Below, piece after piece: positions 1,980-32,384 of a stretch of DNA of 50,571 bases. Both the position numbers and the translations under genes were made by a program. The notes beneath the pieces were generated by a model. That model saw nothing but the letters and a program-made list of their open reading frames with translations, did not search any database and had not been told where the DNA came from. Every line of letters starts with the position of its first letter. Position 1 is the stretch's first letter. This DNA comes from an uncultured Candidatus Saccharibacteria bacterium (GTDB lineage Bacteria; Patescibacteriota; UBA1384; XYA2-FULL-43-10): NCBI GenBank assembly GCA_964486765.1, contig CAZAOA010000004.1:1-50571 (forward strand). The letters run 5' to 3'.

Positions 1980-2037
1980 TCACTGTTTGGCAACCCCAAA
2001 CGTACGTTAACAACTCAACCACAAGGAGACTGCTCAA

Positions 2038-2682
2038 ATGAGCATCGCACTGCCAAGTCGCATACAAGTCCACATGTACATCACATGGACGATAACCGCC
2101 GTAGTCCTCCACTCCATCTGCCTCTGGATCATCGGCCACTGGACACCGCTCATCGGCACTGGCAAGATGCTATGGTTCGATGCCAACAAGATGCTATGGT
2201 TCTTGCCAGTATTGTTCCCTATCTCTCGATGGTGGGACCTGGTGCTCTACCCGGTCATATTGCTTCCGGTATTGGTATTTCACCAAGGTCAGAGAAACTG
2301 GGGCCTGATCATCGGAGGAATCGCTGTAATGATGATCGCCATGGTTCCCGTTCTGAAATACATACTCTGTGGGATTCTGCTTGTGGTTAATCTATTCTCG
2401 ACCATCATATCTCATTGCTCGCATGAAGCGCGTGAAGGTGAAGTACTTGAAGTAACCGCAGTGCTTCTAGTATTTGCCGCGCTAGAGGCCAACGTTGCGT
2501 TCGGCGCTTCAATGACAATCGGACTTGTAGCGGTCCTTGGCGCCGTTTACATCACCGGCCTCCTGCTTCGTTACCTTGTGTTCGCGTTTCAGTGGCTTCT
2601 ATACAGCGCCTTTCCTCTGGTTGCGGCAGCAAGAACCGCCATTGTTGAGTCGGTAAAATGGTGGTTCTTCGATGGCGAATAA
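2038..2682 (+). CDS. Orphan polytopic membrane protein (high-GC island A)
   Basis: 214-aa ORF with strong RBS, several Trp/Leu/Val-rich hydrophobic spans and GC-rich codon choice unlike the flanks. No family recognised. Contains a 24-nt tandem duplication (KMLWFDAN/KMLWFLPV). Confidence 0.55.
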   Translation: MSIALPSRIQVHMYITWTITAVVLHSICLWIIGHWTPLIGTGKMLWFDANKMLWFLPVLFPISRWWDLVLYPVILLPVLVFHQGQRNWGLIIGGIAVMMIAMVPVLKYILCGILLVVNLFSTIISHCSHEAREGEVLEVTAVLLVFAALEANVAFGASMTIGLVAVLGAVYITGLLLRYLVFAFQWLLYSAFPLVAAARTAIVESVKWWFFDGE

Positions 2683-2708
2683 CCTCCCAACCAACCCAAA
2701 CGAGTCCC
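2658..2708 (+). repeat. Direct repeat copy 1 (pairs with 3691-3740)
   Basis: ATGGTGGTTCTTCGATGGCGAATAACCTCCCAACCAACCCAAACGAGTCCC. About 43 of 51 positions match copy 2. Encodes the ...WWFFDGE* end of ORF 2038-2682. Confidence 0.8.
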
Positions 2709-2948
2709 AGTTCCCCGAAGAGCTCGACATCCGCTGTACATTCCTAGAAATAAAGAGGCAGTAATATGGAAGATATGGATCGACAAGCCCAACTTGCAGA
2801 CCGGTTTCGGGGAGAGTTAGTGAACATATATCTTCAGAACTTGCTTCTTACTGAGAAATTGGTAGGGAGCAGAACTGAGGGTAAAACCTCGATCGTTAAA
2901 ACTAATGAGCCCCGACATGAGGCAAAAAGACACAGGAGACTTACCACC

Positions 2949-3476
2949 ATGCGTAACCTGATGATTGCTGTACTGATGCTGTCGGTGTCCGTCGTTGTTG
3001 CTGACGAAGTATCGCTTGGCTACTTTGGTGAGACTGGGTCGTACGATGGCGCATACATGAGCGCGTCGGTAGAGCAGTTCAATGTCTATGTAGAGCACGC
3101 AGGTGAGTGTAATTACACCCTCGCGATGCTCGATGCCGAGGTCGACGAAGGCCTCCGGGTGGGTATGCGTTTCGATTCACCCAGTATTTGGCGGCCGTAC
3201 GTGAAGAAGTCGATAGCGCTGGGTGACGGTTGGGTGGTCGGGCGCTGGTCGGTCGGTGGTTTGGGAGGCGTGAAGCAGCGCTTTGACATCTTCGCAGGCT
3301 ATCCGATCAACGATTGGTTGGCCGTCGAGGGCTGGGAGCGCTACCAGTCGGGATCGGCGCCAGCCCATAGTTGGGGACCGAAGGTATCGTACGGAGACTT
3401 CAGTCTCTGGTACGGCAAGAATTTCGGTGTTGGAGATGATGCTGTTATGGCAAACTACCAGGCATTTGCCTGGTGA
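2949..3476 (+). CDS. Orphan secreted beta-strand-rich protein (high-GC island A)
   Basis: Internal ATG 2949 follows AGGAG and begins a signal-peptide-like MRNLMIAVLMLSVSVVVADE. It has an alternating hydrophobic pattern and a C-terminal ...YQAFAW. The ORF-track start 2766 is probably upstream read-through. Confidence 0.5.
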   Translation: MRNLMIAVLMLSVSVVVADEVSLGYFGETGSYDGAYMSASVEQFNVYVEHAGECNYTLAMLDAEVDEGLRVGMRFDSPSIWRPYVKKSIALGDGWVVGRWSVGGLGGVKQRFDIFAGYPINDWLAVEGWERYQSGSAPAHSWGPKVSYGDFSLWYGKNFGVGDDAVMANYQAFAW

Positions 3477-3690
3477 GAAGGGGGAACTGAATTGGGCGCT
3501 TGGATAAAATGGATACTCTTACAGGGTCCAAGGCTCATTGTGCTGCCTGCCAAGACGGTCTGGATGTGCGAGTAATCCAAGGATAGTGGAATGCCCCTGG
3601 GTCGGATTACAGCGGTGAGGGATTCATCTGTATTATGGGTCTGACGAAGATACCTTCCAACCCCAAAATCACAACCGGAAGCGCCTTTAT

Positions 3691-7493: not shown

Positions 7494-7524
7494 TAAAAAA
7501 GCCCCCCCCGCAAGCGGAGGGAGG
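7494..7524 (-). terminator. Rho-independent terminator of island B gene
   Basis: Minus strand reads CCCTCCGC-TT-GCGGGGGG followed by CTTTTTT. Confidence 0.6.
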
Positions 7525-7568
7525 TCGGACGAAGTATTAGAATCCAAGACACGATAGGATCCGAGCGA

Positions 7569-8156
7569 CTAGTTGCGACGGAACACCCAGTGGCGTCCGT
7601 ATGTCATGTCGAGAAGGTCACCGCCGTAGCTGCTCAGCCACAGACCTCCAAGGGTAGGGCTACACCTATGATCGACGCCGAAGATTTGGGGGCGGCCATC
7701 GAATCTCGCGAGCGGCTCCATGACGATCAATAGCTTATCATCGGGCGGTTGTTTGAGGTAGTGACGGCGGATCTCTGGACCGTCTGATGCCAGACAGGGC
7801 TCCCAGCCAAGCTCAATTCCGGCTTCGTACGCTTGAGTCCAGGAGCAACCCAGCGACGGCGACGGGGAGCCGAGTTCCTCGTTAGAGGCCATGACAAAGC
7901 CAATGTCCTCCTTCGTCTGAGGGATACTGTCTGCGAAGGTGGGCTGGCTTATCATCTCGCTGGCCCATCTGTCGATATGGCTGATGGGTTTGATCTGACT
8001 CAAGGCTTGGCGAAAATCCGCCTCGGTTTTGAGTGTCCCGACCCGCACTGTCAGGAACGGTGAGCGTTCGATGAGGGCGCTCCGACCTGGCACCACTAGC
8101 ATCAGATATCTCCTTCTGCGTTTTATACGGGTTTCGCTCTCCCGAATTTCACTCAT
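7569..8156 (-). CDS. Orphan 195-aa protein (high-GC island B)
   Basis: Long ORF in a GC-rich block with its own promoter and terminator. ATG at 8156 follows the TTG of the ORF track. No family recognised and no clear SD. Confidence 0.5.
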   Translation of the reverse strand: MSEIRESETRIKRRRRYLMLVVPGRSALIERSPFLTVRVGTLKTEADFRQALSQIKPISHIDRWASEMISQPTFADSIPQTKEDIGFVMASNEELGSPSPSLGCSWTQAYEAGIELGWEPCLASDGPEIRRHYLKQPPDDKLLIVMEPLARFDGRPQIFGVDHRCSPTLGGLWLSSYGGDLLDMTYGRHWVFRRN

Positions 8157-10410: not shown

Positions 10411-10448
10411 AGCCAAACATTGACACAATGGCTCTTTTTTGATAGAGT
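10411..10448 (+). promoter_or_regulatory. Cassette 1 promoter/hairpin module
   Basis: AGCCA-N13-TGGCT hairpin whose loop holds TTGACA (10420-10425), then a 17-nt spacer with T-run and TAGAGT (10443-10448). AAGGGAGG at 10475-10482. Confidence 0.5.
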
Positions 10449-10491
10449 TCTGGTGACAGAATACAGAAACCCACAAGGGAGGATGCTGGAC

Positions 10492-11028
10492 ATGAAAGTC
10501 ATCCGGAAAGTATATCCGTTCGTCCCGCTGGTCGTTGCACTGGCGCTTGTAGCCACTTTCCTCTGCCATCGGTTCAAGACCAATGGCGAACTCGAAGACG
10601 CTCGGATCGCCCGTATGAATGCTGAGCTGTCACGGGCAGAAGAATCATTCACCGTCCCAAAAGGTACGCTTCTGGCATCTACTGACGGCGAGAAGTGTCG
10701 AGTCGAAGTCTGGAGTACAGAAGCTATCCCCAACCCCTACAAGGTTCCGTATGCCGATAGTTACTCGCTCGATGGTGTAAGGGTTGTCATCTGTCCAAAA
10801 CAACCCGATGATCCAATGATCCGACGGAAGATCGAAGATGGCGTCGTTTACGATTACCAGCGATCAGGGGCCATAGAACGGCTCATAGACGATGAGCCCA
10901 TTCTCATTCCCGACATATTCACCCTGACTTCGGGTGACTCAGAAATCCAATGGGCGTTCATGCTCGCCATCCCCGACCAGAGTAAGTTTGAGTGGCGAGA
11001 AGAGCCGGCACGAGTGGCAAAGCTCTGA
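10492..11028 (+). CDS. Orphan N-terminally membrane-anchored protein (island C cassette 1)
   Basis: ATG 10492 lies 9 nt after GGAGG. Begins MKVIRKVYPFVPLVVALALVATFLCHRF followed by a soluble domain. GC-rich codons. No family recognised. Confidence 0.55.
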   Translation: MKVIRKVYPFVPLVVALALVATFLCHRFKTNGELEDARIARMNAELSRAEESFTVPKGTLLASTDGEKCRVEVWSTEAIPNPYKVPYADSYSLDGVRVVICPKQPDDPMIRRKIEDGVVYDYQRSGAIERLIDDEPILIPDIFTLTSGDSEIQWAFMLAIPDQSKFEWREEPARVAKL

Positions 11029-11048
11029 TCGTCACCAACACCGCAAGG

Positions 11049-11069
11049 CCGCCCCATACATTGGGGCGG
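11049..11069 (+). terminator. Cassette 1 terminator hairpin
   Basis: CCGCCCCA-TACAT-TGGGGCGG is an 8-bp GC stem 20 nt after the stop. The U-tract is weak. Confidence 0.45.
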
Positions 11070-11133
11070 TCGAATCATTTCTAAAACATTATTTGACTAT
11101 TTAGACCTAGATATTTTTTCGACAATATTCCAC

Positions 11134-11172
11134 GAGCCAAACATTGACACAATGGCTCTTATTTGATAGTTT
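11134..11172 (+). promoter_or_regulatory. Cassette 2 promoter/hairpin module
   Basis: GAGCCA-N13-TGGCTC hairpin, TTGACA 11144-11149, 17-nt spacer, TAGTTT 11167-11172. GGAGG at 11202-11206. Confidence 0.5.
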
Positions 11173-11212
11173 GAATAGGACGAAAATCTGCGACCACACA
11201 CGGAGGCATTCC

Positions 11213-11743
11213 ATGCATCGCAAAGGGTATACGCTGATTGAACTTCTGGTCGTGATCGTGCTCATCGTTTTATTGATAGCAATCGCTATGCCTTGTTATC
11301 AAAAGATAAGCCAGGTAAGCCGAAAAGCCGAAGCGGTCGACACAATCTTCCCACTTAAGGCCGGTGAGATCGCACATATAGCATCGTTGCTTGATGACGA
11401 AGTCATCGTTGTGTATCGGTATGAGAGTACAATCGAGTCACTCCGTGAATACAACGAACTCGTCGATCAAGGAACTGCAGGCCCTCTAGTGGCGCGTGTC
11501 ATAAGCCAACTTCCGATCGCTGGCTCTCCGCCAAACCTATACGTACTGGGAAGTGATGGACAGTCTCTGACGCTAACGCCAAACCCTCCAACCTCGATTC
11601 ATCTGCCCTGCACTTTCGAAGGGCATGAATTCACGAAAGAGATTGATGTGAAGATGAATCCGAAAGTTACGTACGTCGATCAGTCAAAAGCTCTTGCAAA
11701 GAGCGAGAGCTCCACCCGAACCGACCCTGACGCTACACGGTAG
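11213..11743 (+). CDS. Prepilin-type (class III signal peptide) protein, divergent body, C-terminal TRTDPD tail (cassette 2)
   Basis: MHRKG/YTLIELLVVIVLIVLLIAIAMP is a canonical N-methylation/cleavage motif with Glu+5. ATG 11213 lies 6 nt after GGAGG. The track start 11144 is the TTG of the -35 box. Confidence 0.7.
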   Translation: MHRKGYTLIELLVVIVLIVLLIAIAMPCYQKISQVSRKAEAVDTIFPLKAGEIAHIASLLDDEVIVVYRYESTIESLREYNELVDQGTAGPLVARVISQLPIAGSPPNLYVLGSDGQSLTLTPNPPTSIHLPCTFEGHEFTKEIDVKMNPKVTYVDQSKALAKSESSTRTDPDATR

Positions 11744-11787
11744 TTGTCAGGGGCTGTACAAATATTATTTCATTACATATAACAAAA

Positions 11788-11812
11788 AACCGCCATTATA
11801 TGGTGGTTTTTT
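11788..11812 (+). terminator. Cassette 2 rho-independent terminator
   Basis: AACCGCC-ATTATAT-GGTGGTT followed by TTTT. Confidence 0.65.
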
Positions 11813-11841
11813 GAAGTGTTAACTTTCGAAATGGAATTGAA

Positions 11842-11880
11842 GAGCCAAACACTGACACAATGGCTCTTTTTTGATAGTTT
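11842..11880 (+). promoter_or_regulatory. Cassette 3 promoter/hairpin module
   Basis: GAGCCA-N13-TGGCTC hairpin, CTGACA 11852-11857, 17-nt spacer, TAGTTT 11875-11880. GGAGG at 11909-11913. Confidence 0.45.
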
Positions 11881-11919
11881 GAATGGGACGAAAATCTGCG
11901 ACACACATGGAGGCATGCA

Positions 11920-12492
11920 ATGAGTCGCAAAGGGTTTAAGCTGATTGAAGTTCTGGTTGTGATCGCCGTCATCGCCGTCTTGGCTGCAATCCTTTTTCCT
12001 CAATTCGCAAAGGCAAAACGCAAAGCTGAATTGAAGAATGCCATGAGGAATGCCACAAAGGAGTCAATTCTTCCGCTAGAGCGCGGCGTGGTTGCCGCTT
12101 CGCACTCCTTGATGGATGGTTCCGTCAAGATCGAGTATCGGTATGACCGAACCATCACATCTCTGCAGAATTATGATGATCCTGAAACCGTGGTCATCCA
12201 CGAAACAGCCGTACCACTAGTGGTGTATGTCGACAGTCAGCTTCCGATCATTGAATCACACACGACGCCATCTAACCTTCGTCTGAGAATGGCCGACAAC
12301 CGATTCGTAGACATAGACATTGAGCCACTATCGATATCGGCGATCGATTTCCCATACATCCACAATGGCGAGGAACACACAAACAAGATCCCGGTCGAGG
12401 TTGCCCGAACCGAATACCTTGATCTGTCTGGATTAACAGACACAGAAGTCGATATCGCCCGACGTACCCGAACCGACCCTGACAATTCGTAG
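11920..12492 (+). CDS. Prepilin-type (class III signal peptide) protein, paralog of cassette 2 product (cassette 3)
   Basis: MSRKG/FKLIEVLVVIAVIAVLAAILFPQFAKAKRKA. Shares YRY..TI.SL..Y and SQLPI motifs and the RTRTDPD tail with the cassette 2 product. Confidence 0.7.
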   Translation: MSRKGFKLIEVLVVIAVIAVLAAILFPQFAKAKRKAELKNAMRNATKESILPLERGVVAASHSLMDGSVKIEYRYDRTITSLQNYDDPETVVIHETAVPLVVYVDSQLPIIESHTTPSNLRLRMADNRFVDIDIEPLSISAIDFPYIHNGEEHTNKIPVEVARTEYLDLSGLTDTEVDIARRTRTDPDNS

Positions 12493-12536
12493 TTGTCAGG
12501 GGCTGTACAAACATAATTACATTACATATAACAAAA

Positions 12537-16728: not shown

Positions 16729-16757
16729 TTGCTAGTAAATTTTCTGGTTGGTATAAT
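16729..16757 (+). promoter_or_regulatory. sigma70-type promoter for the pilB operon (TTGCTA-17nt-TATAAT)
   Basis: TTGCTA 16729-16734, exact 17-nt spacer, TATAAT 16752-16757. Implies a leader of about 225 nt. Confidence 0.55.
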
Positions 16758-16844
16758 GTAGATAGTTTACTAGATTGTAGTTTTTTAAGTTTCGAATCTT
16801 TATCGTTTGGGTTTGTTTAGTATTTAGATGTTGATCAATTGTTC

Positions 16845-16988
16845 GACACCTGCCCGTCCTGCGCTCGAGTTTGTCTCGAAACCTATCCGCCGTGGCTCGA
16901 CCACGGCGAGACAGGCGGGTTCGCAGACGAATCGTCGCTACGGAGGGCGCGACAGACTATCGATAAAATTAAGGTGTCGCGGAGGGGA
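16845..16988 (+). promoter_or_regulatory. GC-rich conserved 5' leader element, copy P (upstream of pilB)
   Basis: GC-rich block inside an AT-rich leader. It shares GTCTCGAAACCTAT...GGGTTCGCAG.CGAA.CGTCGCT..GG.GGGC.CGACA.ACTAT.GA.AA..TTAAGGTGTCG.GGAGGGG.ATG with 30862-30960 (minus). It carries an extra 8-bp hairpin CGCCGTGG-CTCGA-CCACGGCG at 16888-16908. Confidence 0.5.
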
Positions 16989-19586
16989 ATGAACAGAAAA
17001 GAGCTAGCGAGGGAACTGGCCAAAAAGACCAAACTTTCGGCTAAGCAAGCCGAGAATCTTATAATTGCCTTCGGTGCTGTAGTCACCGATGTTCTAGAAA
17101 AGCAAGAAAAAATCGTTTACTCAAATTTTGGGACATTTTACACTGTTCACTATCCTTCAAAAACAATCTATCACCCAAAACTTGGCAAAAAGAAAACCAT
17201 GATAATGCTTCCGACCAATGCCGCAAAGTGGATGCCCGCAAGTAATATTAAAAAGATGGTAAATGGAGGAGTAGAAGTGGATGAACCAACTAGACACAAA
17301 GCAACAAAATCTCCGATTCAAAAGCCAGATGTTAAAGATGTTCCAGAAAAACCCAAGACCGAAAGCGTAAAGCCGAAAGTTGCAAGTAAACTCGATGAGA
17401 TCGAGGATCTGGAAGAATATCAGAAAGCCAAAAAAGAGATGGCAGATGGGACTCCTTTTGATGTTGGAGATAAGTCAACGTCAAAAAAAGTCAAAGAAGT
17501 AGAAAAAGAGCGAGCAAATATATATGAAGAAACTATGGCGGATGGTTCTAGCGAGCTCTCAACTGTGGACGGCTCAATCAAACTTCATGATGACAAAGAC
17601 GATCATACGATAGATGATGGTCGCAATATGGATAATAGTCATAAGATGGACGATATAGTTGCAAAAAATAAAGAACTTGAAGAAGAAAAAGATAAGAAAC
17701 CAGAGAAAAAAGAAACAAGTCACGATGGAGCATTTAGCAAAATAAAATCAAAGTTCGGGTTTGGCCATAAAGATGATGAAAAAGTGGATGAAGTCAAAAA
17801 AGAAACCAAGGAAGATGAAGAAACGTCTGTAAGTCTTGCAGGATCAGGTATTTTTGGAACTGAGAATATGAAAGATCGCGAAAAAGAAAAAGATATTAAG
17901 ACTACTGGAGCACGAAAGATTGATAAAATAAAAGACGAATTTCACGAAGGCTCAAAAGGCGATGATGATGATTCACTTAGCAAAAGTGCTGAGATACAAA
18001 AACCGAATTTAAGCCTAGTTAGAGAGCCTGTAAATATTGTTTACAAGGACCTTACAAAAGAAGATATCGATAAAGAACTTCTCAAAAAGGTTCCACTTAA
18101 GATTGCCAGAAAATACAAAGCCGTTCCATTGAATGAGAAAGATGGAGTAATCTCCGTTGCTATGGTTGACCCGCAAGATGTCGAGACCAAAGAGATCTTA
18201 AAAAAGAATTTGGGTCAAAATCTTCAAATTGTGCTCTCTACTGAAGCAGATATTAATCATGTTTTGAATCAATACCAAGGCTTGGAAAGTGAAGTTACTA
18301 GCGTTATAGAGGGTGCCGTATCTGCAGGAGAGAAAGATGAAGAAAAGAAAAAGAAAGAAGAGAAAAAGAAAGTTACTGCAGATGAGATCTCCGATGACGC
18401 TCCAGCTGCAAAAATCGTGGATTCATTACTGAAGCGCGCCATTCGTGATAAGGCTTCAGATATTCACATAGAGCCTGCTGAGAAAGAAGTTGAGGTCAGA
18501 TTCAGGATTGATGGAGTACTTCGAAAGAAAGTTTCGCTCCCTAAAGACATTCAGGCTGCAGTTGTTTCTCGATTAAAGATCTTATCAAATATGAAGATTG
18601 ATGAACAGCGTGTGCCTCAAGATGGAAGATTTAACATGATTGTAGATAATAGACAAGTCGACTTTCGTGTTTCGACCATGCCAATCTCTTCTGGTGAAAA
18701 AGTAGTTATGCGTATCTTGGATAAAGAAACTGGAATTTTGACAATAGAACAGTTAGGTATTCAGGGTAGTGGTAAAGTAGTCATCGAAGACAACCTTAAA
18801 AAGAGCCATGGGATGATACTTGTTACCGGTCCTACTGGTTCAGGTAAGTCCACCACTCTTTATGCTATGATCAGCAAGATTTTCAATGTTGGAGTAAATA
18901 TTATTACACTTGAAGATCCGATTGAGTATCAGATCAAAGGAATCAACCAAAGCCAAGTTAATTCAGCTATCGGTTACACATTTGCAAGTGGGCTTAGATC
19001 CATTCTAAGACAAGATCCGGACATTATCATGCTTGGGGAGATTCGTGACAAAGAAACTGCAGAGATGGCCGTTCACGCCGCTCTAACTGGTCATGTACTT
19101 TTGTCTACTCTTCACACAAACACAGCTGCAGGTGCAGCACCTCGAATGATTGATATGGGTGTTGAGCCATTCCTTTTAACTTCTTCCATAAATGTAATTA
19201 TTGCTCAAAGACTTGTAAGAAAGATCTGTAGCGAATGCAAAGAGGAAGTCAAGCTTGCTCCCGAAGAGCTAGAAACAGTCAAAAAAGAGATTGAATTACT
19301 TCCTGAAAAGGAAAAAGCTGAGATTAAAAAGAAAGACATTAAGTTTTTCCATGGAAAAGGCTGCAAGACTTGCGATAATTCTGGAACAAAAGGACGAATT
19401 GGAATCTATGAAGTACTTGATGTAACTGAAGAGATAAAAGCGTTGGTTCAACAGCGTTCTTCAGACGCAGGGATCCATAAGATTGCAATTTCACAAGGGA
19501 TGGTTACCTTATTACAAGATGGAATAATCAAAGCCGTAAATGGTGAAATACCAATGACTGAAGTATGGAGAACAACTAAGGAATAA
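16989..19586 (+). CDS. pilB: HU/IHF-like DNA-binding domain fused through a K/E/D-rich linker to type IV pilus assembly ATPase PilB (GspE family)
   Basis: ATG 16989 follows GGAGGGG. Residues 1-95 (MNRKELARELAKKTKLSAKQAENLIIAFGAVVTDVLEKQEKIVYSNFGTFYTVHYP...) look like HU. Then come a T2SSE_N-like domain, Walker A GPTGSGKSTT, and the tetracysteine CSEC...CKTC. The 50 upstream codons of the track ORF lie in the leader. Confidence 0.85.
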   Translation: MNRKELARELAKKTKLSAKQAENLIIAFGAVVTDVLEKQEKIVYSNFGTFYTVHYPSKTIYHPKLGKKKTMIMLPTNAAKWMPASNIKKMVNGGVEVDEPTRHKATKSPIQKPDVKDVPEKPKTESVKPKVASKLDEIEDLEEYQKAKKEMADGTPFDVGDKSTSKKVKEVEKERANIYEETMADGSSELSTVDGSIKLHDDKDDHTIDDGRNMDNSHKMDDIVAKNKELEEEKDKKPEKKETSHDGAFSKIKSKFGFGHKDDEKVDEVKKETKEDEETSVSLAGSGIFGTENMKDREKEKDIKTTGARKIDKIKDEFHEGSKGDDDDSLSKSAEIQKPNLSLVREPVNIVYKDLTKEDIDKELLKKVPLKIARKYKAVPLNEKDGVISVAMVDPQDVETKEILKKNLGQNLQIVLSTEADINHVLNQYQGLESEVTSVIEGAVSAGEKDEEKKKKEEKKKVTADEISDDAPAAKIVDSLLKRAIRDKASDIHIEPAEKEVEVRFRIDGVLRKKVSLPKDIQAAVVSRLKILSNMKIDEQRVPQDGRFNMIVDNRQVDFRVSTMPISSGEKVVMRILDKETGILTIEQLGIQGSGKVVIEDNLKKSHGMILVTGPTGSGKSTTLYAMISKIFNVGVNIITLEDPIEYQIKGINQSQVNSAIGYTFASGLRSILRQDPDIIMLGEIRDKETAEMAVHAALTGHVLLSTLHTNTAAGAAPRMIDMGVEPFLLTSSINVIIAQRLVRKICSECKEEVKLAPEELETVKKEIELLPEKEKAEIKKKDIKFFHGKGCKTCDNSGTKGRIGIYEVLDVTEEIKALVQQRSSDAGIHKIAISQGMVTLLQDGIIKAVNGEIPMTEVWRTTKE

Positions 19587-20988: not shown

Positions 20989-21984
20989 TTGGGGATTTTT
21001 TCATCAAATTCAGCAAATGTTTTCGGGCTTGATATAGGCTTCGAGACTTTGAAGTTGTGTGAAACTCGAAGATCTGGTAACTCTGTTAAGATTGTAGGTC
21101 TCTCTGAACACCACATTACCGAAAGAATTTTAGATAAAGACACCATAAAAAATAAGGCTAAAGTCGCCAATATGATCAAGGAATCAATGCGTACAGCGAA
21201 ACCTCATTCGATTAGGGCCAACAAGATTGTGACAGCTCTACCCGAAACATTTGTATTTTCTAAAACCATACAGGTACCCAAGATGGGACCAAAAGAACTT
21301 ACAGTTGCTATCCCCAACGAAGCAGCGCAGTACCTTCCAATGCCGATTGTTGAAGTCTACATAGACTACCAAGTCTTGGTAACTCACCCCGAAGAGAACC
21401 GAATGGACATTCTTGTCGCAGCAGCCCCTAAAAGGCTTGTTGACGATTATGTTGAAATGGCCAAGATGGCGAAGATGGAACTTGCTGCACTAGAAACCAA
21501 ACCTGTAGCAGTTGGACGGGCTCTGATTCCTGAAAAATCCAACGAAGGAATCGCTATCTTACATATAGGGACAGAGATTTCTCGAATATCGATATGGGAC
21601 AAAGGAGATATCCGCCTTATCACTACCGTATCAACCGGAAAAAACAAACTTCTGGAAAGTCTTGGTATGGTCAATAAAAGTACGGAAGAAATTACAAAGA
21701 TCAGCCTTGATGAGGAGAAAAAGCTAAACTTAATGCTACCACTAAATTCTATAATTGATGAAGTCGCAGAAGCAATCAGGTATCACCAAAATCGTGGTTA
21801 TAAACCCTCCCCCATCAAACACATTGAGCTTTGTGGAACCGGCGCGCTCATATCGGGAATAGATAAAATAATTGAATCCGAGATAAAGATAAAGACCGAA
21901 GTTTCAAGTTCACAGTTCAATTTAAAAGATAGCCTTCATCCACAGTATCTGACAGCATTTGGATTATCGTTAAGGGAGATATAA
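20989..21984 (+). CDS. pilM: Type IV pilus assembly protein PilM (actin-like ATPase fold)
   Basis: VFGLDIGFETLKL and LCGTGALISG motifs. AGGAGG at 20980-20985 lies inside the track ORF (TTG 20974), so TTG 20989 is the proposed start, which remains uncertain. Confidence 0.8.
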   Translation: MGIFSSNSANVFGLDIGFETLKLCETRRSGNSVKIVGLSEHHITERILDKDTIKNKAKVANMIKESMRTAKPHSIRANKIVTALPETFVFSKTIQVPKMGPKELTVAIPNEAAQYLPMPIVEVYIDYQVLVTHPEENRMDILVAAAPKRLVDDYVEMAKMAKMELAALETKPVAVGRALIPEKSNEGIAILHIGTEISRISIWDKGDIRLITTVSTGKNKLLESLGMVNKSTEEITKISLDEEKKLNLMLPLNSIIDEVAEAIRYHQNRGYKPSPIKHIELCGTGALISGIDKIIESEIKIKTEVSSSQFNLKDSLHPQYLTAFGLSLREI

Positions 21985-28969: not shown

Positions 28970-29719
28970 CTACCCAAACTTTGTGTATCCCTCCGCATAT
29001 TTGCTTACCCCTAACCCCTTGCCGACGTATTCATCCATCGCCATTATCGCATCATCGTATTTTTTAACTTTGAGTTGAGTTTTAAACATCTTTATCGCCT
29101 CATTCTTGTATCTAACGTATTTATCTATCGGGAAAATGATATTTGGATTACCTATTCCCCAAACATGATATTCCCAAACCTCCGGCTTCTTCCCCGATGC
29201 GACACGGTCGGGGTTCCGACCCTCCGGGCGTCGGAATTTACACCTTATAAAAGCCTTCTTAAAAGCCTCATAGACGTTTTGATGATCATGATGCCACTCT
29301 ATACCACTGGGAATTAAAACAAGCTCTAAAGGATGAGTTTTAAGTTCTTCCAAAATATTCTCGTCCAGCTTCTTTCCTTTTGTGCCCTCTTTCATTCTCA
29401 AAAAGTTGACTTCGCTTACATCTATTATTTTCGATGCTTTAAATGCTTCTTTTTCCCTCTCAACAACCAATGAACTGTCAACGACTCCTTCGCGATTACC
29501 ACTTGCTCCATTAAAAATGTAGAGAACTCTTATAAATGCTCCCTCTTCTGACAGATGCTTCAACAATCCTGCACATCCAAAAATCGCATCATCTGGATGG
29601 GGCGCCAAAACCAAAACGTGCTTTGCATTCACAGAAGAAACGACCTTGGTTTTCAAATGATCCCGAGTAGTCGAATGAACAAATTTATCATCATCAAAGT
29701 ATTTTATTTTCAACATCAA
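28970..29719 (-). CDS. PIG-L/LmbE-family N-acetylglucosaminyl deacetylase
   Basis: VLVLAPHPDDAIFGCAG and HHDH motifs. Contains a GC-rich in-frame segment at 29190-29245. Confidence 0.8.
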   Translation of the reverse strand: MMLKIKYFDDDKFVHSTTRDHLKTKVVSSVNAKHVLVLAPHPDDAIFGCAGLLKHLSEEGAFIRVLYIFNGASGNREGVVDSSLVVEREKEAFKASKIIDVSEVNFLRMKEGTKGKKLDENILEELKTHPLELVLIPSGIEWHHDHQNVYEAFKKAFIRCKFRRPEGRNPDRVASGKKPEVWEYHVWGIGNPNIIFPIDKYVRYKNEAIKMFKTQLKVKKYDDAIMAMDEYVGKGLGVSKYAEGYTKFG

Positions 29720-30864
29720 AACTCCTTAGAAAGTCGTACATACTCATCTTCCAATCTCTTAACCACCTTATCCCAGTCAAATTTTTTAAGTCTTTCTTTC
29801 CCACCTCTAATTAATTGAGCTGCTAAGGCAGGTCGTCTTAAAAGCTCATCAATCGCTTCGGCAATCTCCTTTGGGTTTTTTGCAGGAATCAGCATTCCAC
29901 TTTTACCATTTTCAATAACATCTTTCACTCCCCCGACTTTTGTTGCCACTATCGGAACGGAAACACTCATCGCCTCCAATAGCACTATCCCAAATGTTTC
30001 TGCAACAGAAGAAAGAACAAAAACATCCCATTTCTTCACAAAAGTTAGCGGATCACTCTTTCTTCCCATTAGAGTTACATTGTGTTCAAGTTTCAACTCT
30101 TTAATCAGGTTTGAAAGATTCTTTTTTTCGGGTCCATCTCCAATGATCTCTAGAGTTGCATGCGGATGATCATCGACAATTTGCTTCATAGCCCTAATCA
30201 AGTATTCATAACCTTTTTGTGGATTCAGATTTCCAACCGAACCAAGGTGGGGAGGGTGATTGGAATGTGCGATTCTGCGTTTTGATTTTGAAATATTACC
30301 TTTAAATTTTTCAGCATCTATGGCATTTGGAATTGTTATTATTCTCTCTTTTGGTGCCATGTTGGTTTCAACCAGATACTCTTTAACTGCGCTAGATACA
30401 GCGATTATTAGATTGGTTTTATTATTTAGTTTTTTTAGAACTTTTTTCTGGAACCACTCATTAATTCCGCCAATGCTATAGTCGGCATCCCATCTGTGTT
30501 CGGTGTAAACAGAGAGTGCTCCAGTCGGAATTGCCATTCTACCCAGCAAACCTGCACGTGGTCCATGAGTATGAACGATCATCGGTCCAAACGGATTTTT
30601 GTCCGACTGGATTTGTGACAAAGTTTCAAAGATCTTTTTCTTTGCTTCCATGTCGAACTTGGATCGCATTGGAATTTTTATCACCGAAATCTTTGAAAGT
30701 TTCTCGGCCTCATTTGGCAAATTCCCAGAAGGTGAAATCAAAAACAGATCGAATTTTCTTCTGTCGATGTTTCGCAAAATTCCCAAAACATGAGTCGGTC
30801 CCCCTGAAAGATCGGAGTCCGCTATGATCTGGACTAGTTTAATTTTCCCCTTCTTCTTTTCCAT
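29716..30864 (-). CDS. Glycosyltransferase family 4 (GT-B, group 1)
   Basis: True start MEKKKGKIKLVQIIADSDLSGGPTHVL at 30864, after GGAGGGG. C-terminal E-x7-E-type region FGIVLLEAMSVSVPIVATKVGG. Confidence 0.85.
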   Translation of the reverse strand: MEKKKGKIKLVQIIADSDLSGGPTHVLGILRNIDRRKFDLFLISPSGNLPNEAEKLSKISVIKIPMRSKFDMEAKKKIFETLSQIQSDKNPFGPMIVHTHGPRAGLLGRMAIPTGALSVYTEHRWDADYSIGGINEWFQKKVLKKLNNKTNLIIAVSSAVKEYLVETNMAPKERIITIPNAIDAEKFKGNISKSKRRIAHSNHPPHLGSVGNLNPQKGYEYLIRAMKQIVDDHPHATLEIIGDGPEKKNLSNLIKELKLEHNVTLMGRKSDPLTFVKKWDVFVLSSVAETFGIVLLEAMSVSVPIVATKVGGVKDVIENGKSGMLIPAKNPKEIAEAIDELLRRPALAAQLIRGGKERLKKFDWDKVVKRLEDEYVRLSKEF

Positions 30865-30983
30865 ACCCCTCCACGACACCTTAATACTTTTCAATAGTTT
30901 GTCGTGCCCACCAAAGCGACGTTTCGGCTGCGAACCCATAGGTTTCGAGACGAACCCGAGCGACGGCTGGGCTACTCATTATC
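30865..30983 (-). promoter_or_regulatory. GC-rich conserved 5' leader element, copy G (between gltX stop and the GT4 gene)
   Basis: Minus strand reads ...CTCGGGTTCGTCTCGAAACCTATGGGTTCGCAGCCGAAACGTCGCTTTGGTGGGCACGACAAACTATTGAAAAGTATTAAGGTGTCGTGGAGGGGTATG. About 83 percent identical to copy P over ~99 nt by hand alignment. Confidence 0.5.
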
Positions 30984-32384
30984 CTATCTCAATAATTCTA
31001 TCGCCTTTTCTATCCTTTTTATCGATTCTTCTTTTTCGAGCGCTACCAAAAGTTCAATCGGTGATGGTGATCTCTCTTCTCCCGAAAGCGCTACTCGAAC
31101 CGGCCAAAAAACGTCTCCGTTGGTCAAACTATTGTTACTCACAACTCTAGCTAACACTTCTTGCAAATATTCCGCGTTCCAATTTGAGTCTTCAACATTT
31201 TCAAACTCTTCAATAACCCACTTCAATCCTTTAGCTGTTGCTTCTTTGTCTGATTTTTTGAAGACCAATATTGTCGATTTGTAATCTGGAGTCTCTCTTA
31301 GTTTTAATATATAGTCCGCTGCTTCTTTTAAAGTTTTATATCCACCACGTTTTACAATTTCAGATTCTCCAGAATTTACTTCATCGACTCCAAACGGTAC
31401 CATTAGATTGCCCAATTTACTATCTGACAATTCTCTCAAATAATGCTCATTAGTATCATTTAATTTATCTTCGTCAAATATTGCAGCTGCTTTATTTACA
31501 TTTTCTATCTTAAATTCTTTTTTTAGTTCATCAAGAGTAAAAAACTGTTTGCTATCATCTTTAGGGTTCCAGCCTAAAAATGCCATAAAGTTGATTAGAG
31601 ATTCTGACAAATACCCATCACTTCGAACATCTTTCACTGATGTTCCATTATGACGCTTGCTCATCTTCTTTTTTTCTGCACCTAATATCATCGATAAATG
31701 TGCATAGATTGGGATATCCCAACCAAACATTTTGAACAATACTATATGCTTTGGAGTAGACGAGAGCCACTCCTCCGCCCTGATTATATGTGTGATCTCC
31801 ATCTCATGATCGTCAACAACTGCAGCCAAGTGGTAAGTTGGAAAACCGTCAGATTTCAAAATTATCTGATCATCTATCAAGCTTGAATCGAATTCTACTT
31901 TTCCTCGAACCAAATCGTTGACAACGATTTTTTCATTTTCAGGCATCTTCATCCGAACAGCATAGGAGCTATCTTCAAGATCATTAATGTCAATTTTAGC
32001 ATCGCGACAATGTCCTTCGTATCTTGGAGGCAATTTAGATTTTTCCTGTTTCTCTCTATCAGCCACAAGTTTTTCTTTGGTACAAGTGCAGATATATGCT
32101 TTTTCATTATTTACTAGATCAAAGGCGTGTTTTTTATACACCTCTTTGCGATCTGACTGGATCATAGGCTTGTCAACATTATCAGGAGTAATTCCGAGCC
32201 ACTTCAATGATTCAATAATTCGTTCGACTGATCCCTTAATAAAACGCTCTCTATCAGTATCCTCAATTCGAAGTAAAAACTCTCCACCTTCTGACTTAGC
32301 AAAAAGATATGCAAAAAGAGCGGTTCTGGCTCCGCCTATGTGTAGCTCCCCTGTTGGACTTGGTGCAAATCTAGTTTTTATCAT
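30984..32384 (-). CDS. gltX: Glutamyl-tRNA synthetase
   Basis: RFAPSPTGELHIGGARTALF (HIGH) and KMSKR (KMSKS) motifs. Confidence 0.95.
   Translation of the reverse strand: MIKTRFAPSPTGELHIGGARTALFAYLFAKSEGGEFLLRIEDTDRERFIKGSVERIIESLKWLGITPDNVDKPMIQSDRKEVYKKHAFDLVNNEKAYICTCTKEKLVADREKQEKSKLPPRYEGHCRDAKIDINDLEDSSYAVRMKMPENEKIVVNDLVRGKVEFDSSLIDDQIILKSDGFPTYHLAAVVDDHEMEITHIIRAEEWLSSTPKHIVLFKMFGWDIPIYAHLSMILGAEKKKMSKRHNGTSVKDVRSDGYLSESLINFMAFLGWNPKDDSKQFFTLDELKKEFKIENVNKAAAIFDEDKLNDTNEHYLRELSDSKLGNLMVPFGVDEVNSGESEIVKRGGYKTLKEAADYILKLRETPDYKSTILVFKKSDKEATAKGLKWVIEEFENVEDSNWNAEYLQEVLARVVSNNSLTNGDVFWPVRVALSGEERSPSPIELLVALEKEESIKRIEKAIELLR

What the first reader, a model, noticed from the sequence alone, without database searches (positions are those of the whole stretch)
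16845..16991. Conserved GC-rich leader ending in SD+ATG upstream of two unrelated envelope genes (pilB and a GT4 glycosyltransferase): candidate novel cis-regulatory RNA
Hand alignment compared 16868-16991 (plus) with the reverse complement of 30862-30960. Block 1, CTCG.GTT.GTCTCGAAACCTAT, gives 21 of 23 identical. Block 2 gives about 63 of 76 identical: GGGTTCGCAG.CGAA.CGTCGCT..GG.GGGC.CGACA.ACTAT.GA.AA..TTAAGGTGTCG.GGAGGGG.ATG. Similarity stops at the start codon. The pilB copy carries a 30-nt insertion between the blocks that forms a perfect 8-bp hairpin (16888-16908), as a variable stem would in a structured RNA. Both copies are GC-rich islands in AT-rich DNA, and both place the SD inside the conserved part. 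C-rich stretches upstream (CCCGTCC, CCCAGCC) could mask GGAGGGG. I checked from memory against c-di-GMP-I/II, ykkC, ZTP, glycine, TPP, fluoride and ydaO signatures and saw no match.
Basis: partly seen in the sequence, partly recalled or inferred. Interest (0 to 1): 0.8.

Follow-up and report, generated by a model that had tools for sequence, protein, structure and literature searches.

The report
Modular structured leader before strong ribosome-binding sites
Two genes in this candidate-phyla-radiation (Berkelbacteria-like) genome carry the same folded 110-140 nt RNA leader ending at the ribosome-binding site; it belongs to a small undescribed family found before unrelated genes in five genomes, and it looks like a translation or mRNA-stability leader rather than a metabolite-sensing riboswitch.

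Summary
Window 16852-16987 (+) and 30972-30866 (-) are homologous, non-coding, GC-rich leaders that end at GGAGGGG plus ATG. No Rfam family matches either copy.

I found six more instances in four other Patescibacteria genomes. All eight lie in sense orientation and abut a start codon. The genes are HU-PilB (2), pilM, a GT4 glycosyltransferase (2), enolase (2) and a DUF4012 protein.

Anatomy:
- P1 is a clamp helix, GCCCRUCC paired with GGAGGGC. Its 3' strand looks like the Shine-Dalgarno (SD) sequence.
- P2 is a 2-bp helix.
- P3 is a long optional hairpin, with an optional 30-nt extension, P3a.
- P4 is a hairpin whose sequence varies freely.
- The SD, GGAGGGG, follows P4 directly.

P1, P2, P3a and P4 show compensatory changes: 9 pairs changed on both sides, against 3.2±1.1 in shuffles. 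P3 shows none. It is truncated, deleted or replaced in three members.

The element is missing from close orthologues, including a GT4 locus whose protein is 98% identical. That locus keeps the SD.

Best reading: a lineage-restricted, modular translation-initiation leader that keeps a strong SD exposed. It may work as an anti-SD/decoy switch. A metabolite riboswitch is unlikely. The function has not been tested.

The parts
16729..16757 (+). Sigma-70-like promoter (TTGCTA-17-TATAAT, with TG before the -10 hexamer). It would start the pilB transcript about 90 nt upstream of the element. Context only, not part of the repeated unit.
   Evidence: Comparable promoters precede orthologous pilB leaders in L003, L089, L099 and L100.
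16852..16859 (+). Copy 1, P1 5' strand GCCCGTCC. It is C-rich and anti-SD-like, with a bulged G.
16863..16864 (+). Copy 1, P2 5' strand (GC). It pairs with 16937-16938.
   Evidence: Both pairs become AU and UA in the enolase copy L084.
16870..16931 (+). Copy 1, P3 long hairpin (TTTGTCTCGAAACC / GGGTTCGCAGACGAA). Its apical part is the 30-nt insertion.
   Evidence: P3 shows sequence conservation without compensatory change.
16887..16916 (+). Copy 1, 30-nt optional extension P3a, with an 8-bp hairpin at 16888-16908.
   Evidence: A homologous insertion, 21 of 30 identical with two pairs changed on both sides, occurs in the enolase copy L084.
16937..16938 (+). Copy 1, P2 3' strand (GC).
16942..16948 (+). 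Copy 1, P1 3' strand GGAGGGC. This is the internal SD look-alike, or 'decoy'.
16949..16980 (+). Copy 1, P4 hairpin (GCGACA / TGTCGC, 20-nt AU-rich loop). It abuts both P1 and the SD.
16981..16987 (+). Copy 1, Shine-Dalgarno sequence GGAGGGG. The ATG is at 16989-16991.
16989..19586 (+). Downstream gene: HU/IHF-type domain fused to the PilB-type T4P/T2SS ATPase (865 aa).
30965..30972 (-). Copy 2, P1 5' strand GCCCAGCC. It starts 12 nt after the gltX stop codon (30984-30986).
30923..30954 (-). Copy 2, P3 hairpin without the 30-nt extension (loop TAT).
30906..30912 (-). Copy 2, P1 3' strand GGTGGGC. The U-A pair of copy 1 is replaced here by G-U.
30873..30905 (-). Copy 2, P4 hairpin (ACGACA / TGTCGT). 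Its first pair is A-U instead of G-C.
30866..30872 (-). Copy 2, Shine-Dalgarno sequence GGAGGGG. The ATG is at 30864-30862.
29716..30864 (-). Downstream gene: GT4 glycosyltransferase (382 aa), followed by a PIG-L deacetylase (28970-29719).

Best explanation
The two stretches belong to a small, undescribed family of modular structured mRNA leaders. The family is restricted to a few Berkelbacteria-like Patescibacteria.

Anatomy (shown). The unit runs from GCCCRUCC to the start codon.
- P1 is a 7-bp clamp. It pairs the C-rich, anti-SD-like 5' strand with an internal SD look-alike (GGAGGGC).
- P1 closes a pyrimidine-rich internal loop and a 2-bp P2.
- Beyond P2 lies an optional long hairpin, P3, with or without a 30-nt extension, P3a.
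- A second hairpin, P4, follows directly. Its sequence is free to vary.
- P4 abuts the real SD, GGAGGGG. The start codon comes 1-3 nt later, or 4 nt later in L002.

Mechanism (inferred, not shown). The leader acts in cis on the RNA as an organiser of the translation-initiation region. P1 and P4 soak up the flanking sequence, including a strand that could otherwise mask the SD. A strong SD is therefore left single-stranded whatever lies upstream, whether a 5' UTR (pilB, enolase) or the end of the preceding cistron (gltX-GT4). The stable hairpins may also protect the mRNA or mark a processing site.

Possible switch. The C-rich strand can pair with either the decoy or the SD. A trans factor that binds the sequence-conserved P3 could use this arrangement as an on/off switch.

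Evolution. The family changes through module loss, indels and recombination rather than staying fixed to particular genes.
For: Homology and significance.

Eight distinct instances in five genomes, all in sense orientation and all ending at GGAGGGG plus a start codon:
- window, two copies;
- L003 (HU-pilB) and L084 (enolase), both from Berkelbacteria RIFOXYA2_FULL_43_10;
- L096 (enolase) and L100 (pilM), both from JGI sample 3300045006;
- L092 (GT4);
- L002 (DUF4012 protein).

Structure. 95.9% of cells form standard pairs. Nine pairs changed on both sides, against 3.2±1.1 in shuffles (0 of 500 shuffles reach it). Slid controls give 0-1. My own segmentation counts 117 Watson-Crick pairs, 2 G-U and 4 A-C in P1, P2 and P4. 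P4 has three unrelated stem sequences: GCGACA, GCTAC or ACTGC, and an A-tract.

Non-coding. The reading frames differ between the copies.

Specificity. A descriptor scan for P1 + decoy + P4 + SD over 2.5 Mb returns only the known instances.

SD accessibility. The fold with P1 on the decoy beats the fold with P1 on the SD by 2-10 kcal/mol in all eight.

Strong SD. GGAGGGG occurs only four times in the window, and two of these are the elements.

Orthologous leaders without the element still have a small hairpin followed by (G)GAGGGG.

Age. The copies are 75-88% identical over a gap-free 67-nt domain, both within and between genomes whose PilB proteins are only about 57% identical. They are therefore old and constrained, not recent transposition products.
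Against: No expression, structure-probing or reporter data exist. The effect on translation or stability is inference.

The sample is small: eight instances, several of them related. The alignment used for pair counts was fitted to the model.

Sense and antisense strands fold equally well, and G-U does not outnumber A-C in P1, P2 and P4. Selection on RNA rather than on a DNA palindrome is therefore supported mainly by orientation and position.

The strong sequence conservation of P3, without covariation, is not explained by a purely architectural role.

The element is dispensable. Close orthologues lack it, including a GT4 locus whose protein is 98% identical. A decayed relic seems to exist upstream of pilM in L089.

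MFE predictions for three copies already mix in pairing between the SD and the C-rich strand.
Confidence: 0.5

Rival explanations
1. Regulated three-strand switch. A protein or other trans factor binds the conserved P3 hairpin or the P1/P2 internal loop. This decides whether the C-rich strand pairs with the internal decoy (SD free, translation on) or with the real SD (translation off). Pilus, glycan and glycolytic genes would then be co-regulated.
For: - The decoy (GGAGGGC) and the SD (GGAGGGG) are near-identical, so the same 5' strand can pair with either. The energy gap is only 2-3 kcal/mol in win_pilB, win_GT4 and L092, and unconstrained folds mix both states.
- P1 is far more conserved in sequence than P4. 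That is expected if the 5' strand must stay complementary to an SD fixed by the rRNA.
- P3 is conserved in sequence without covariation, as protein-binding hairpins are.
- An unrelated GT4 leader (L102) carries a perfect CCCTCC upstream of GGAGGGG.
Against: - P3 is absent or different in three of eight members.
- Where P1 varies (win_GT4, L002), the 5' strand follows the decoy and not the SD.
- The on-state is favoured by 5-10 kcal/mol in five copies.
- No candidate factor has been identified.
Confidence: 0.2
2. Metabolite- or second-messenger-sensing riboswitch, with P1-P3 as the aptamer and P4 plus the SD as the expression platform.
For: - GC-rich structured leader adjacent to the SD, with some covariation.
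- A P1 strand could act as an anti-SD.
- No known family matches, so it would be a new class.
Against: - There is no conserved multi-helix core. The structure is essentially one irregular hairpin plus a second hairpin.
- The putative aptamer is truncated (L096), deleted down to 15 nt (L092) or replaced (L002), while P1, P4 and the SD persist.
- The associated genes are functionally unrelated: PilB, PilM, GT4, enolase and DUF4012.
- Presence is sporadic among near-identical orthologues.
Confidence: 0.07
3. Selfish or neutral dispersed repeat: a MITE-like or REP-like palindrome acting at the DNA level. It is tolerated upstream of genes, has no role in expression, and is spread by transposition or recombination.
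For: - P1 resembles short terminal inverted repeats.
- Length variants arise by internal deletion or insertion.
- Presence/absence polymorphism occurs between close relatives.
- A decayed relic seems to exist.
- Sense and antisense fold equally well.
- These genomes also carry another dispersed GC hairpin family, CCTGCC..GGCAGG.
Against: - All 8 instances are in sense orientation and immediately 5' of an SD and start codon (two-sided binomial p about 0.008 for orientation alone).
- No target-site duplication flanks the unit.
- Copies are 75-88% identical, not near-identical.
- Only two copies occur in 50 kb, and no stray copies in 2.5 Mb scanned.
- The window-versus-L103 difference is a recombination tract with its breakpoint at the SD, not a clean insertion.
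- Compensatory changes keep the helices.
Confidence: 0.12
4. RNase III-type processing and insulation site. The 22-40 bp P1-P3 duplex is cleaved. This uncouples the downstream cistron from upstream RNA and leaves P4 as a 5' stabiliser next to the SD.
For: - The long, nearly continuous duplex sits in a polycistronic context: gltX-GT4 with no room for a promoter, and pilC-pilM.
- P4 would become a 5'-terminal hairpin.
- Precedent: RNase III binds or cleaves Correia elements (abstract of PMC2649163, listed).
Against: - The mini version (L092) has only about 9 bp and could not be an RNase III substrate.
- Nothing here tests cleavage.
Confidence: 0.08
5. Portable promoter cassette. The AT-rich P4 loop supplies a -10 box, so transcription starts inside the element.
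For: - TATAAT lies in the P4 loop of L084 and L100.
- L100 has a 10-of-12 promoter-like match, TTCGCA-18-TATAAT.
Against: - No promoter-like match exists in the two window copies, L084 or L096.
- The A-tract P4 type has no -10 box.
- A promoter does not explain the covarying helices.
Confidence: 0.03

Closest known systems
Anti-SD / anti-anti-SD expression platforms of translational riboswitches (for example thiM TPP and btuB cobalamin). Recalled from my own knowledge. PMC11162775 (listed) uses these terms for btuB.
   Same: Three collinear strands are present: an SD, a complementary C-rich strand, and an SD-like strand that competes for it. The unit ends at the start codon.
   Different: No recognisable aptamer and no Rfam match. 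The domain between the competing strands is dispensable. The predicted default state leaves the SD free. No ligand is known.
Correia repeat enclosed elements (CREE/NEMIS) of Neisseria and similar small structured repeats (ERIC, BOX, RUP). Sources: abstracts of PMC2649163 and PMC2229807, listed.
   Same: Repeats of 50-150 nt with inverted-repeat ends. They are co-transcribed with neighbouring genes, occur as long and short variants produced by internal indels, vary in presence between strains, and can influence expression of the adjacent gene.
   Different: Here the copy number is low, all copies are in sense orientation and fused to the SD and start codon, there is no target-site duplication, copies are 12-25% diverged and carry compensatory changes, and no evidence of transposition exists.
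5'-UTR stabiliser or translation-enhancing hairpins (ompA 5' stem-loops; the Bacillus cryIIIA STAB-SD). Recalled from my own knowledge, not checked here.
   Same: Stable hairpins, an SD-like sequence upstream of the real SD, and no ligand needed.
   Different: In STAB-SD the upstream SD-like sequence is single-stranded and binds the 30S subunit. Here it is base-paired in P1. The element also occurs between cistrons.
RNA thermometers (ROSE, fourU). Recalled from my own knowledge.
   Same: Control at the level of SD accessibility by local pairing.
   Different: In the favoured fold the SD is not paired. The helices are GC-rich and long.

Membership tests
Any described RNA family (Rfam 15) | Match to a curated covariance model at or near its gathering score | tested here: not met
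   The window scan at gathering thresholds found only five tRNAs. Permissive scans (E<=10) of both window copies, L084 and L002 gave only chance hits of 12-14 bits to eukaryotic lncRNA and miRNA models, or no hit at all for L002.
Metabolite riboswitch (generic) | A conserved ligand-binding core kept in all members | tested here: not met
   P3 is truncated in L096, deleted in L092 and replaced in L002, while P1, P4 and the SD persist. P3 has no compensatory change.
Metabolite riboswitch (generic) | Association with genes of one pathway or process related to the ligand | tested here: not met
   The genes are HU-PilB x2, PilM, GT4 x2, enolase x2 and a DUF4012 protein.
Metabolite riboswitch (generic) | Ligand-dependent structural change | not testable with these tools
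   Needs in-line probing or ITC.
Anti-SD / anti-anti-SD translational switch | An SD, a strand complementary to it, and a competing SD-like strand in one leader | tested here: met
   CCCRUCC, GGAGGGC and GGAGGGG are present in 6 of 8 instances, with weaker SD complementarity in win_GT4 and L002.
Anti-SD / anti-anti-SD translational switch | Two mutually exclusive folds of comparable stability, with switching between them | tested here: inconclusive
   The off-state is 2-3 kcal/mol above the on-state in three copies and 4-10 kcal/mol above it in five. Whether switching occurs cannot be tested here.
MITE / Correia-like mobile repeat | Terminal inverted repeats flanked by a target-site duplication | tested here: not met
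   P1 could serve as a 7-8 bp inverted repeat, but the flanks show no direct repeat.
MITE / Correia-like mobile repeat | Many near-identical copies, in either orientation, at varied distances from genes | tested here: not met
   Two copies occur in the 50-kb window. Identity is 75-88%. All 8 are in sense orientation and abut the SD. No other copy was found in 2.5 Mb scanned.
MITE / Correia-like mobile repeat | Presence/absence polymorphism between close relatives with otherwise identical flanks | tested here: inconclusive
   The element is absent in L103 (GT4 98% identical), but the upstream flank (gltX) is only 67% identical. This is a recombination tract rather than a clean insertion.
RNA thermometer (ROSE/fourU) | SD base-paired in the ground-state hairpin | tested here: not met
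   The SD is unpaired in the favoured constrained fold of all eight.
Intrinsic terminator / transcription attenuator | GC hairpin followed by a U-run | tested here: not met
   No terminator-like site lies on the sense strand of either window copy. P4 is followed by GGAGGGG.

The most novel reading that the evidence does not exclude
The element is a new class of trans-factor-controlled translational switch specific to candidate-phyla-radiation bacteria. A protein, or an unknown ligand, reads the conserved P3 hairpin or the P1/P2 loop. It toggles a C-rich strand between an internal SD decoy and the real SD. This would co-regulate type IV pilus assembly (PilB, PilM), surface glycan synthesis (GT4, DUF4012) and glycolysis (enolase) in these host-dependent, genome-reduced organisms.
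Probability: 0.15. Interest if true: 0.75.

Novelty: new member of a known kind. Interest (0 to 1): 0.45.

Why it matters
Very little is known about post-transcriptional control in Patescibacteria (CPR), and these genomes yield few matches to described regulatory RNA families. This is a concrete, testable leader family placed before genes central to the CPR lifestyle: type IV pili, surface glycans and glycolysis. Natural variants already mark out the minimal functional unit, namely the full element, the truncated P3, the mini element and the element-free form.

If the decoy/anti-SD arrangement really switches, it would be a compact, ligand-free design for tuning ribosome access. If it is constitutive, it is a natural 'insulated RBS' module.

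It is also a caution. A GC-rich leader with conserved sequence and an SD can look like a riboswitch without being one.

Tried and rejected
- Rfam at gathering and at permissive thresholds on four instances gave nothing.
- DNA pattern scans of species-representative genomes (three patterns), JGI metagenomes and IMG/VR recovered only L002 and the RIFOXYA2_FULL_43_10 genome, in part as identical metagenome contigs. Two hits were chance hits inside coding sequence (L001, L083). The viral scan found nothing.
- The third window match, at 21034, is a chance hit inside pilM.
- Orthologous loci were checked and the element is absent from them: pilB in L004-L006, L089, L090, L099 and L100; GT4 in L091, L093, L102 and L103; enolase in L095 and L097/L098.
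- Coding reading rejected. The mechanical ORFs through the element (16828-16992, 16839-19586, 29716-30939) are in different frames in the two copies.
- N-terminal extensions of homologous proteins were scanned for translated element motifs. This led only to L102, which is not a member.
- Strand asymmetry, by G-U versus A-C counts and by sense versus antisense fold energy, was uninformative.
- An internal promoter is plausible in only one copy.
- The resemblance of GGGTTCG / TCGAAACC to a tRNA T-arm finds no support in the Rfam scan, which places tRNAs only elsewhere in the window.
- A literature search for structured RNAs in Patescibacteria found nothing relevant.
Full report
**1. Observation**

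There is a 5' block (…GCTCGNGTTYGTCTCGAAACCTAT) and a 3' block (GGGTTCGCAG…GGAGGGGNATG). A 30-nt insertion is present only in the first copy (16887-16916, with a perfect 8-bp hairpin at 16888-16908). Similarity ends at the ATG.

- The 19-mer TTAAGGTGTCGNGGAGGGG occurs exactly twice in the window, against 0.01 expected.
- The copies lie in different reading frames for most of their length and carry a 1-nt indel. The ORFs that run through them are therefore mechanical.
- The homologous unit begins at GCCCGTCC (16852) and GCCCAGCC (30972).
- Downstream genes: an HU/IHF-type domain fused to a PilB-type ATPase (PF00216 + PF05157 + PF00437), and a GT4 glycosyltransferase followed by a PIG-L deacetylase.
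- Copy 2 starts 12 nt after the gltX stop codon. Copy 1 lies about 90 nt downstream of a good sigma-70-like promoter.

**2. Not a known family**

Rfam 15 finds only tRNAs in the window. Permissive scans of four instances give only chance hits.

**3. More members**

DNA pattern scans, protein-guided locus retrieval and a covariance model (R1) gave six further instances.

| Instance | Source | Gene downstream | Form |
|---|---|---|---|
| L003 | Berkelbacteria RIFOXYA2_FULL_43_10 | orthologous HU-pilB | full P3, A-tract P4 |
| L084 | same genome | enolase | full P3 with a homologous 30-nt insertion |
| L096 | JGI sample 3300045006 | enolase | truncated P3 |
| L100 (= L101) | JGI samples 3300045146 and 3300045006 (identical protein) | pilM | full P3 |
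| L092 | Logan contig, GT4 83% identical to the window's | GT4 | mini version |
| L002 | another Patescibacteria MAG | DUF4012 protein, after a gene resembling a polysaccharide chain-length determinant (Wzz; my reading of its sequence) | P3 of unrelated sequence |

- Model scores run from 173 down to 31 bits.
- A hand-written descriptor (P1 + decoy + P4 of at least 5 bp + SD) over 2.5 Mb of held sequence returns exactly these instances and nothing else.
- All eight are in sense orientation and end in GGAGGGG. The start codon follows 1-3 nt later, or 4 nt later in L002.

**4. Anatomy and covariation**

RNAalifold on four copies, my own segmentation of eight and the count of structure pairs on the model alignment agree.

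- **P1:** GCCC-R-UCC paired with GGA-GGGC. It has one C-G to U-A change and one U-A to G-U change.
- **Internal loop:** 3×3 and pyrimidine-rich.
- **P2:** 2 bp. It is GC/GC in seven copies and AU/AU in L084.
- **P3:** 13 bp with two bulges.
- **P3a:** the optional 8-bp hairpin, with two pairs changed on both sides between the two copies that have it.
- **P4:** a hairpin that abuts both P1 and the SD. It has three unrelated stems (GCGACA; GCTAC or ACTGC; A-tract). Pairs 1, 3 and 4 changed on both sides.

Overall, 95.9% of cells are paired. Nine pairs changed on both sides, against 3.2±1.1 in shuffles (0 of 500), and slid controls give 0-1.

Caveats: there are eight related sequences, and the alignment was fitted to the model.

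P3 is different. It has no compensatory change, three pairs carry mismatches, and yet it is the most conserved part in sequence. The 67-nt domain has no indels and is 75-88% identical, even between genomes whose PilB proteins are about 57% identical.

**5. Modularity and sporadic distribution**

P3 can be shortened, removed or replaced.
- L096 has AGGTTCG-TAAA-CGGATCT. This looks like a deletion between the two GGTTCG direct repeats.
- L092 has only 15 nt between the P1 strands.
- L002 has an unrelated P3.

The whole element is missing upstream of close orthologues.
- **pilB:** L089 (70% identical to the window's PilB), L090, and L099 and L100 (86% and 75% identical to L003's PilB).
- **GT4:** L091 (79%) and L103 (98%).
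- **Enolase:** L095 (91%) and L097/L098 (75%).

Those leaders keep a small hairpin and (G)GAGGGG. The exception is L091, which has no visible SD.

Window versus L103: nucleotide identity is 96% from the SD onward, but gltX is only 67% identical at the protein level. The difference is therefore a recombination tract with its breakpoint at the SD, not a clean insertion.

L089 has what looks like a decayed copy before pilM. It keeps a P4-like stem through two G-U pairs.

**6. Mechanism**

Shown: the P1 3' strand (GGAGGGC) is nearly identical to the SD (GGAGGGG), so the C-rich 5' strand can pair with either.

Constrained folding favours P1 on the decoy (SD free) by 2-10 kcal/mol in all eight. Unconstrained ensembles mix in some pairing between the SD and the C-rich strand. 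Where P1 varies, the 5' strand follows the decoy and not the SD.

GGAGGGG is rare in the window: four occurrences, two of them in the elements.

I infer that the unit is a cis-acting RNA leader that organises the translation-initiation region. P1 and P4 absorb the flanking sequence and neutralise an anti-SD-like strand. A strong SD is then displayed whether the element sits in a 5' UTR or between cistrons. It may also have stabilising or processing roles.

The decoy/anti-SD geometry, the sequence conservation of P1 and the conserved P3 leave room for a factor-controlled switch (rival 1).

A metabolite riboswitch is unlikely for three reasons: there is no conserved core, the genes are unrelated, and the 'aptamer' is dispensable.

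A neutral or mobile repeat is disfavoured by five observations: orientation and position (8 of 8), the lack of target-site duplications, low copy number, 12-25% divergence with maintained pairing, and the absence of stray copies. Equal folding of both strands means a DNA-level palindrome cannot be excluded from structure alone.

**7. Comparison with known systems**

It works most like the anti-SD/anti-anti-SD expression platforms of translational riboswitches, but without an aptamer.

Its population behaviour resembles that of small structured repeats such as Correia elements (PMC2649163, PMC2229807). The shared traits are length variants, presence/absence and co-transcription. It fails their defining features, as set out in the membership table.

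**8. Verdict**

This is a real, previously undescribed, lineage-restricted structured leader family. It is a new member of the broad class of cis-acting mRNA leaders.

- The riboswitch and envelope-gene interpretation is only partly supported.
- Function remains inferred.
- Interest is moderate.

Noticed in passing
window 16989-19586 (+): The PilB-type ATPase carries an N-terminal HU/IHF-type DNA-binding domain (PF00216), followed by a long acidic/lysine-rich linker, MshEN and T2SSE. Of the 120 homologues listed (40-100% identical, mostly unnamed metagenome proteins; the few named ones are Patescibacteria, Berkelbacteria or unclassified 'bacterium'), more than 100 share this fusion architecture.
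   Followed up: partly
window about 10430-12500 (+): Three tandem paralogous genes (176-190 aa) have near-identical leaders: ..TTGATAGTTTGAA..GACGAAAATCTGCGAC..GGAGGCAT..ATG. This is another repeated upstream element.
   Followed up: no
window about 2000-3600, 7500-8100, 10500-12000: These GC-rich stretches (0.49-0.62) stand out in a window of about 0.39 GC. Rfam finds no RNA family there.
   Followed up: no
window 30866-30873 versus L103 2253: A recombination breakpoint lies exactly at the SD. Downstream (GT4 and PIG-L) is 96% identical at the nucleotide level to JGI contig Ga0114923_10014894. Upstream, gltX is only 67% identical at the protein level.
   Followed up: partly
L005 5755; L089 12818, 19871; L091 14389; L100 4405, 8545, 11876; L101 4828; L102 1005: A second dispersed GC-rich hairpin family, CCTGCC(TGCC)GGC(G)AGGCAGG, occurs in intergenic DNA of several related Patescibacteria contigs. 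It may be a terminator-like or REP-like element.
   Followed up: partly
L095 6640-6680: The enolase leader that lacks the element has three direct repeats of ATCCGTG just upstream of AAGGAGGG. This may be an operator.
   Followed up: no
L102 2795-2850: A GT4 leader unrelated by covariance model carries a perfect anti-SD hexamer, CCCTCC, 41 nt upstream of GGAGGGG plus TTG. The annotated protein P0133 is extended through this leader.
   Followed up: partly
L089 14150-14262: This appears to be a decayed copy of the element upstream of pilM in the closest relative. The decoy is reduced to GGAGTC. The P4-like stem CATGATA/TGTCGTG is kept through two G-U pairs.
   Followed up: partly
window 16765-16850; L003 5825-5890; L089 9915-9970; L100 4440-4535: The orthologous pilB 5' UTRs share a long G/U-rich spacer (…GTTTGTTT…GATTTTTGAT…) between the promoter and the SD-proximal hairpins. 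This holds whether or not the element is present.
   Followed up: no
window 16828-16992 (+): A 54-codon ORF spans copy 1 and ends in an ATGA overlap with the pilB start codon. It has no SD of its own, and its frame is not kept in copy 2.
   Followed up: partly
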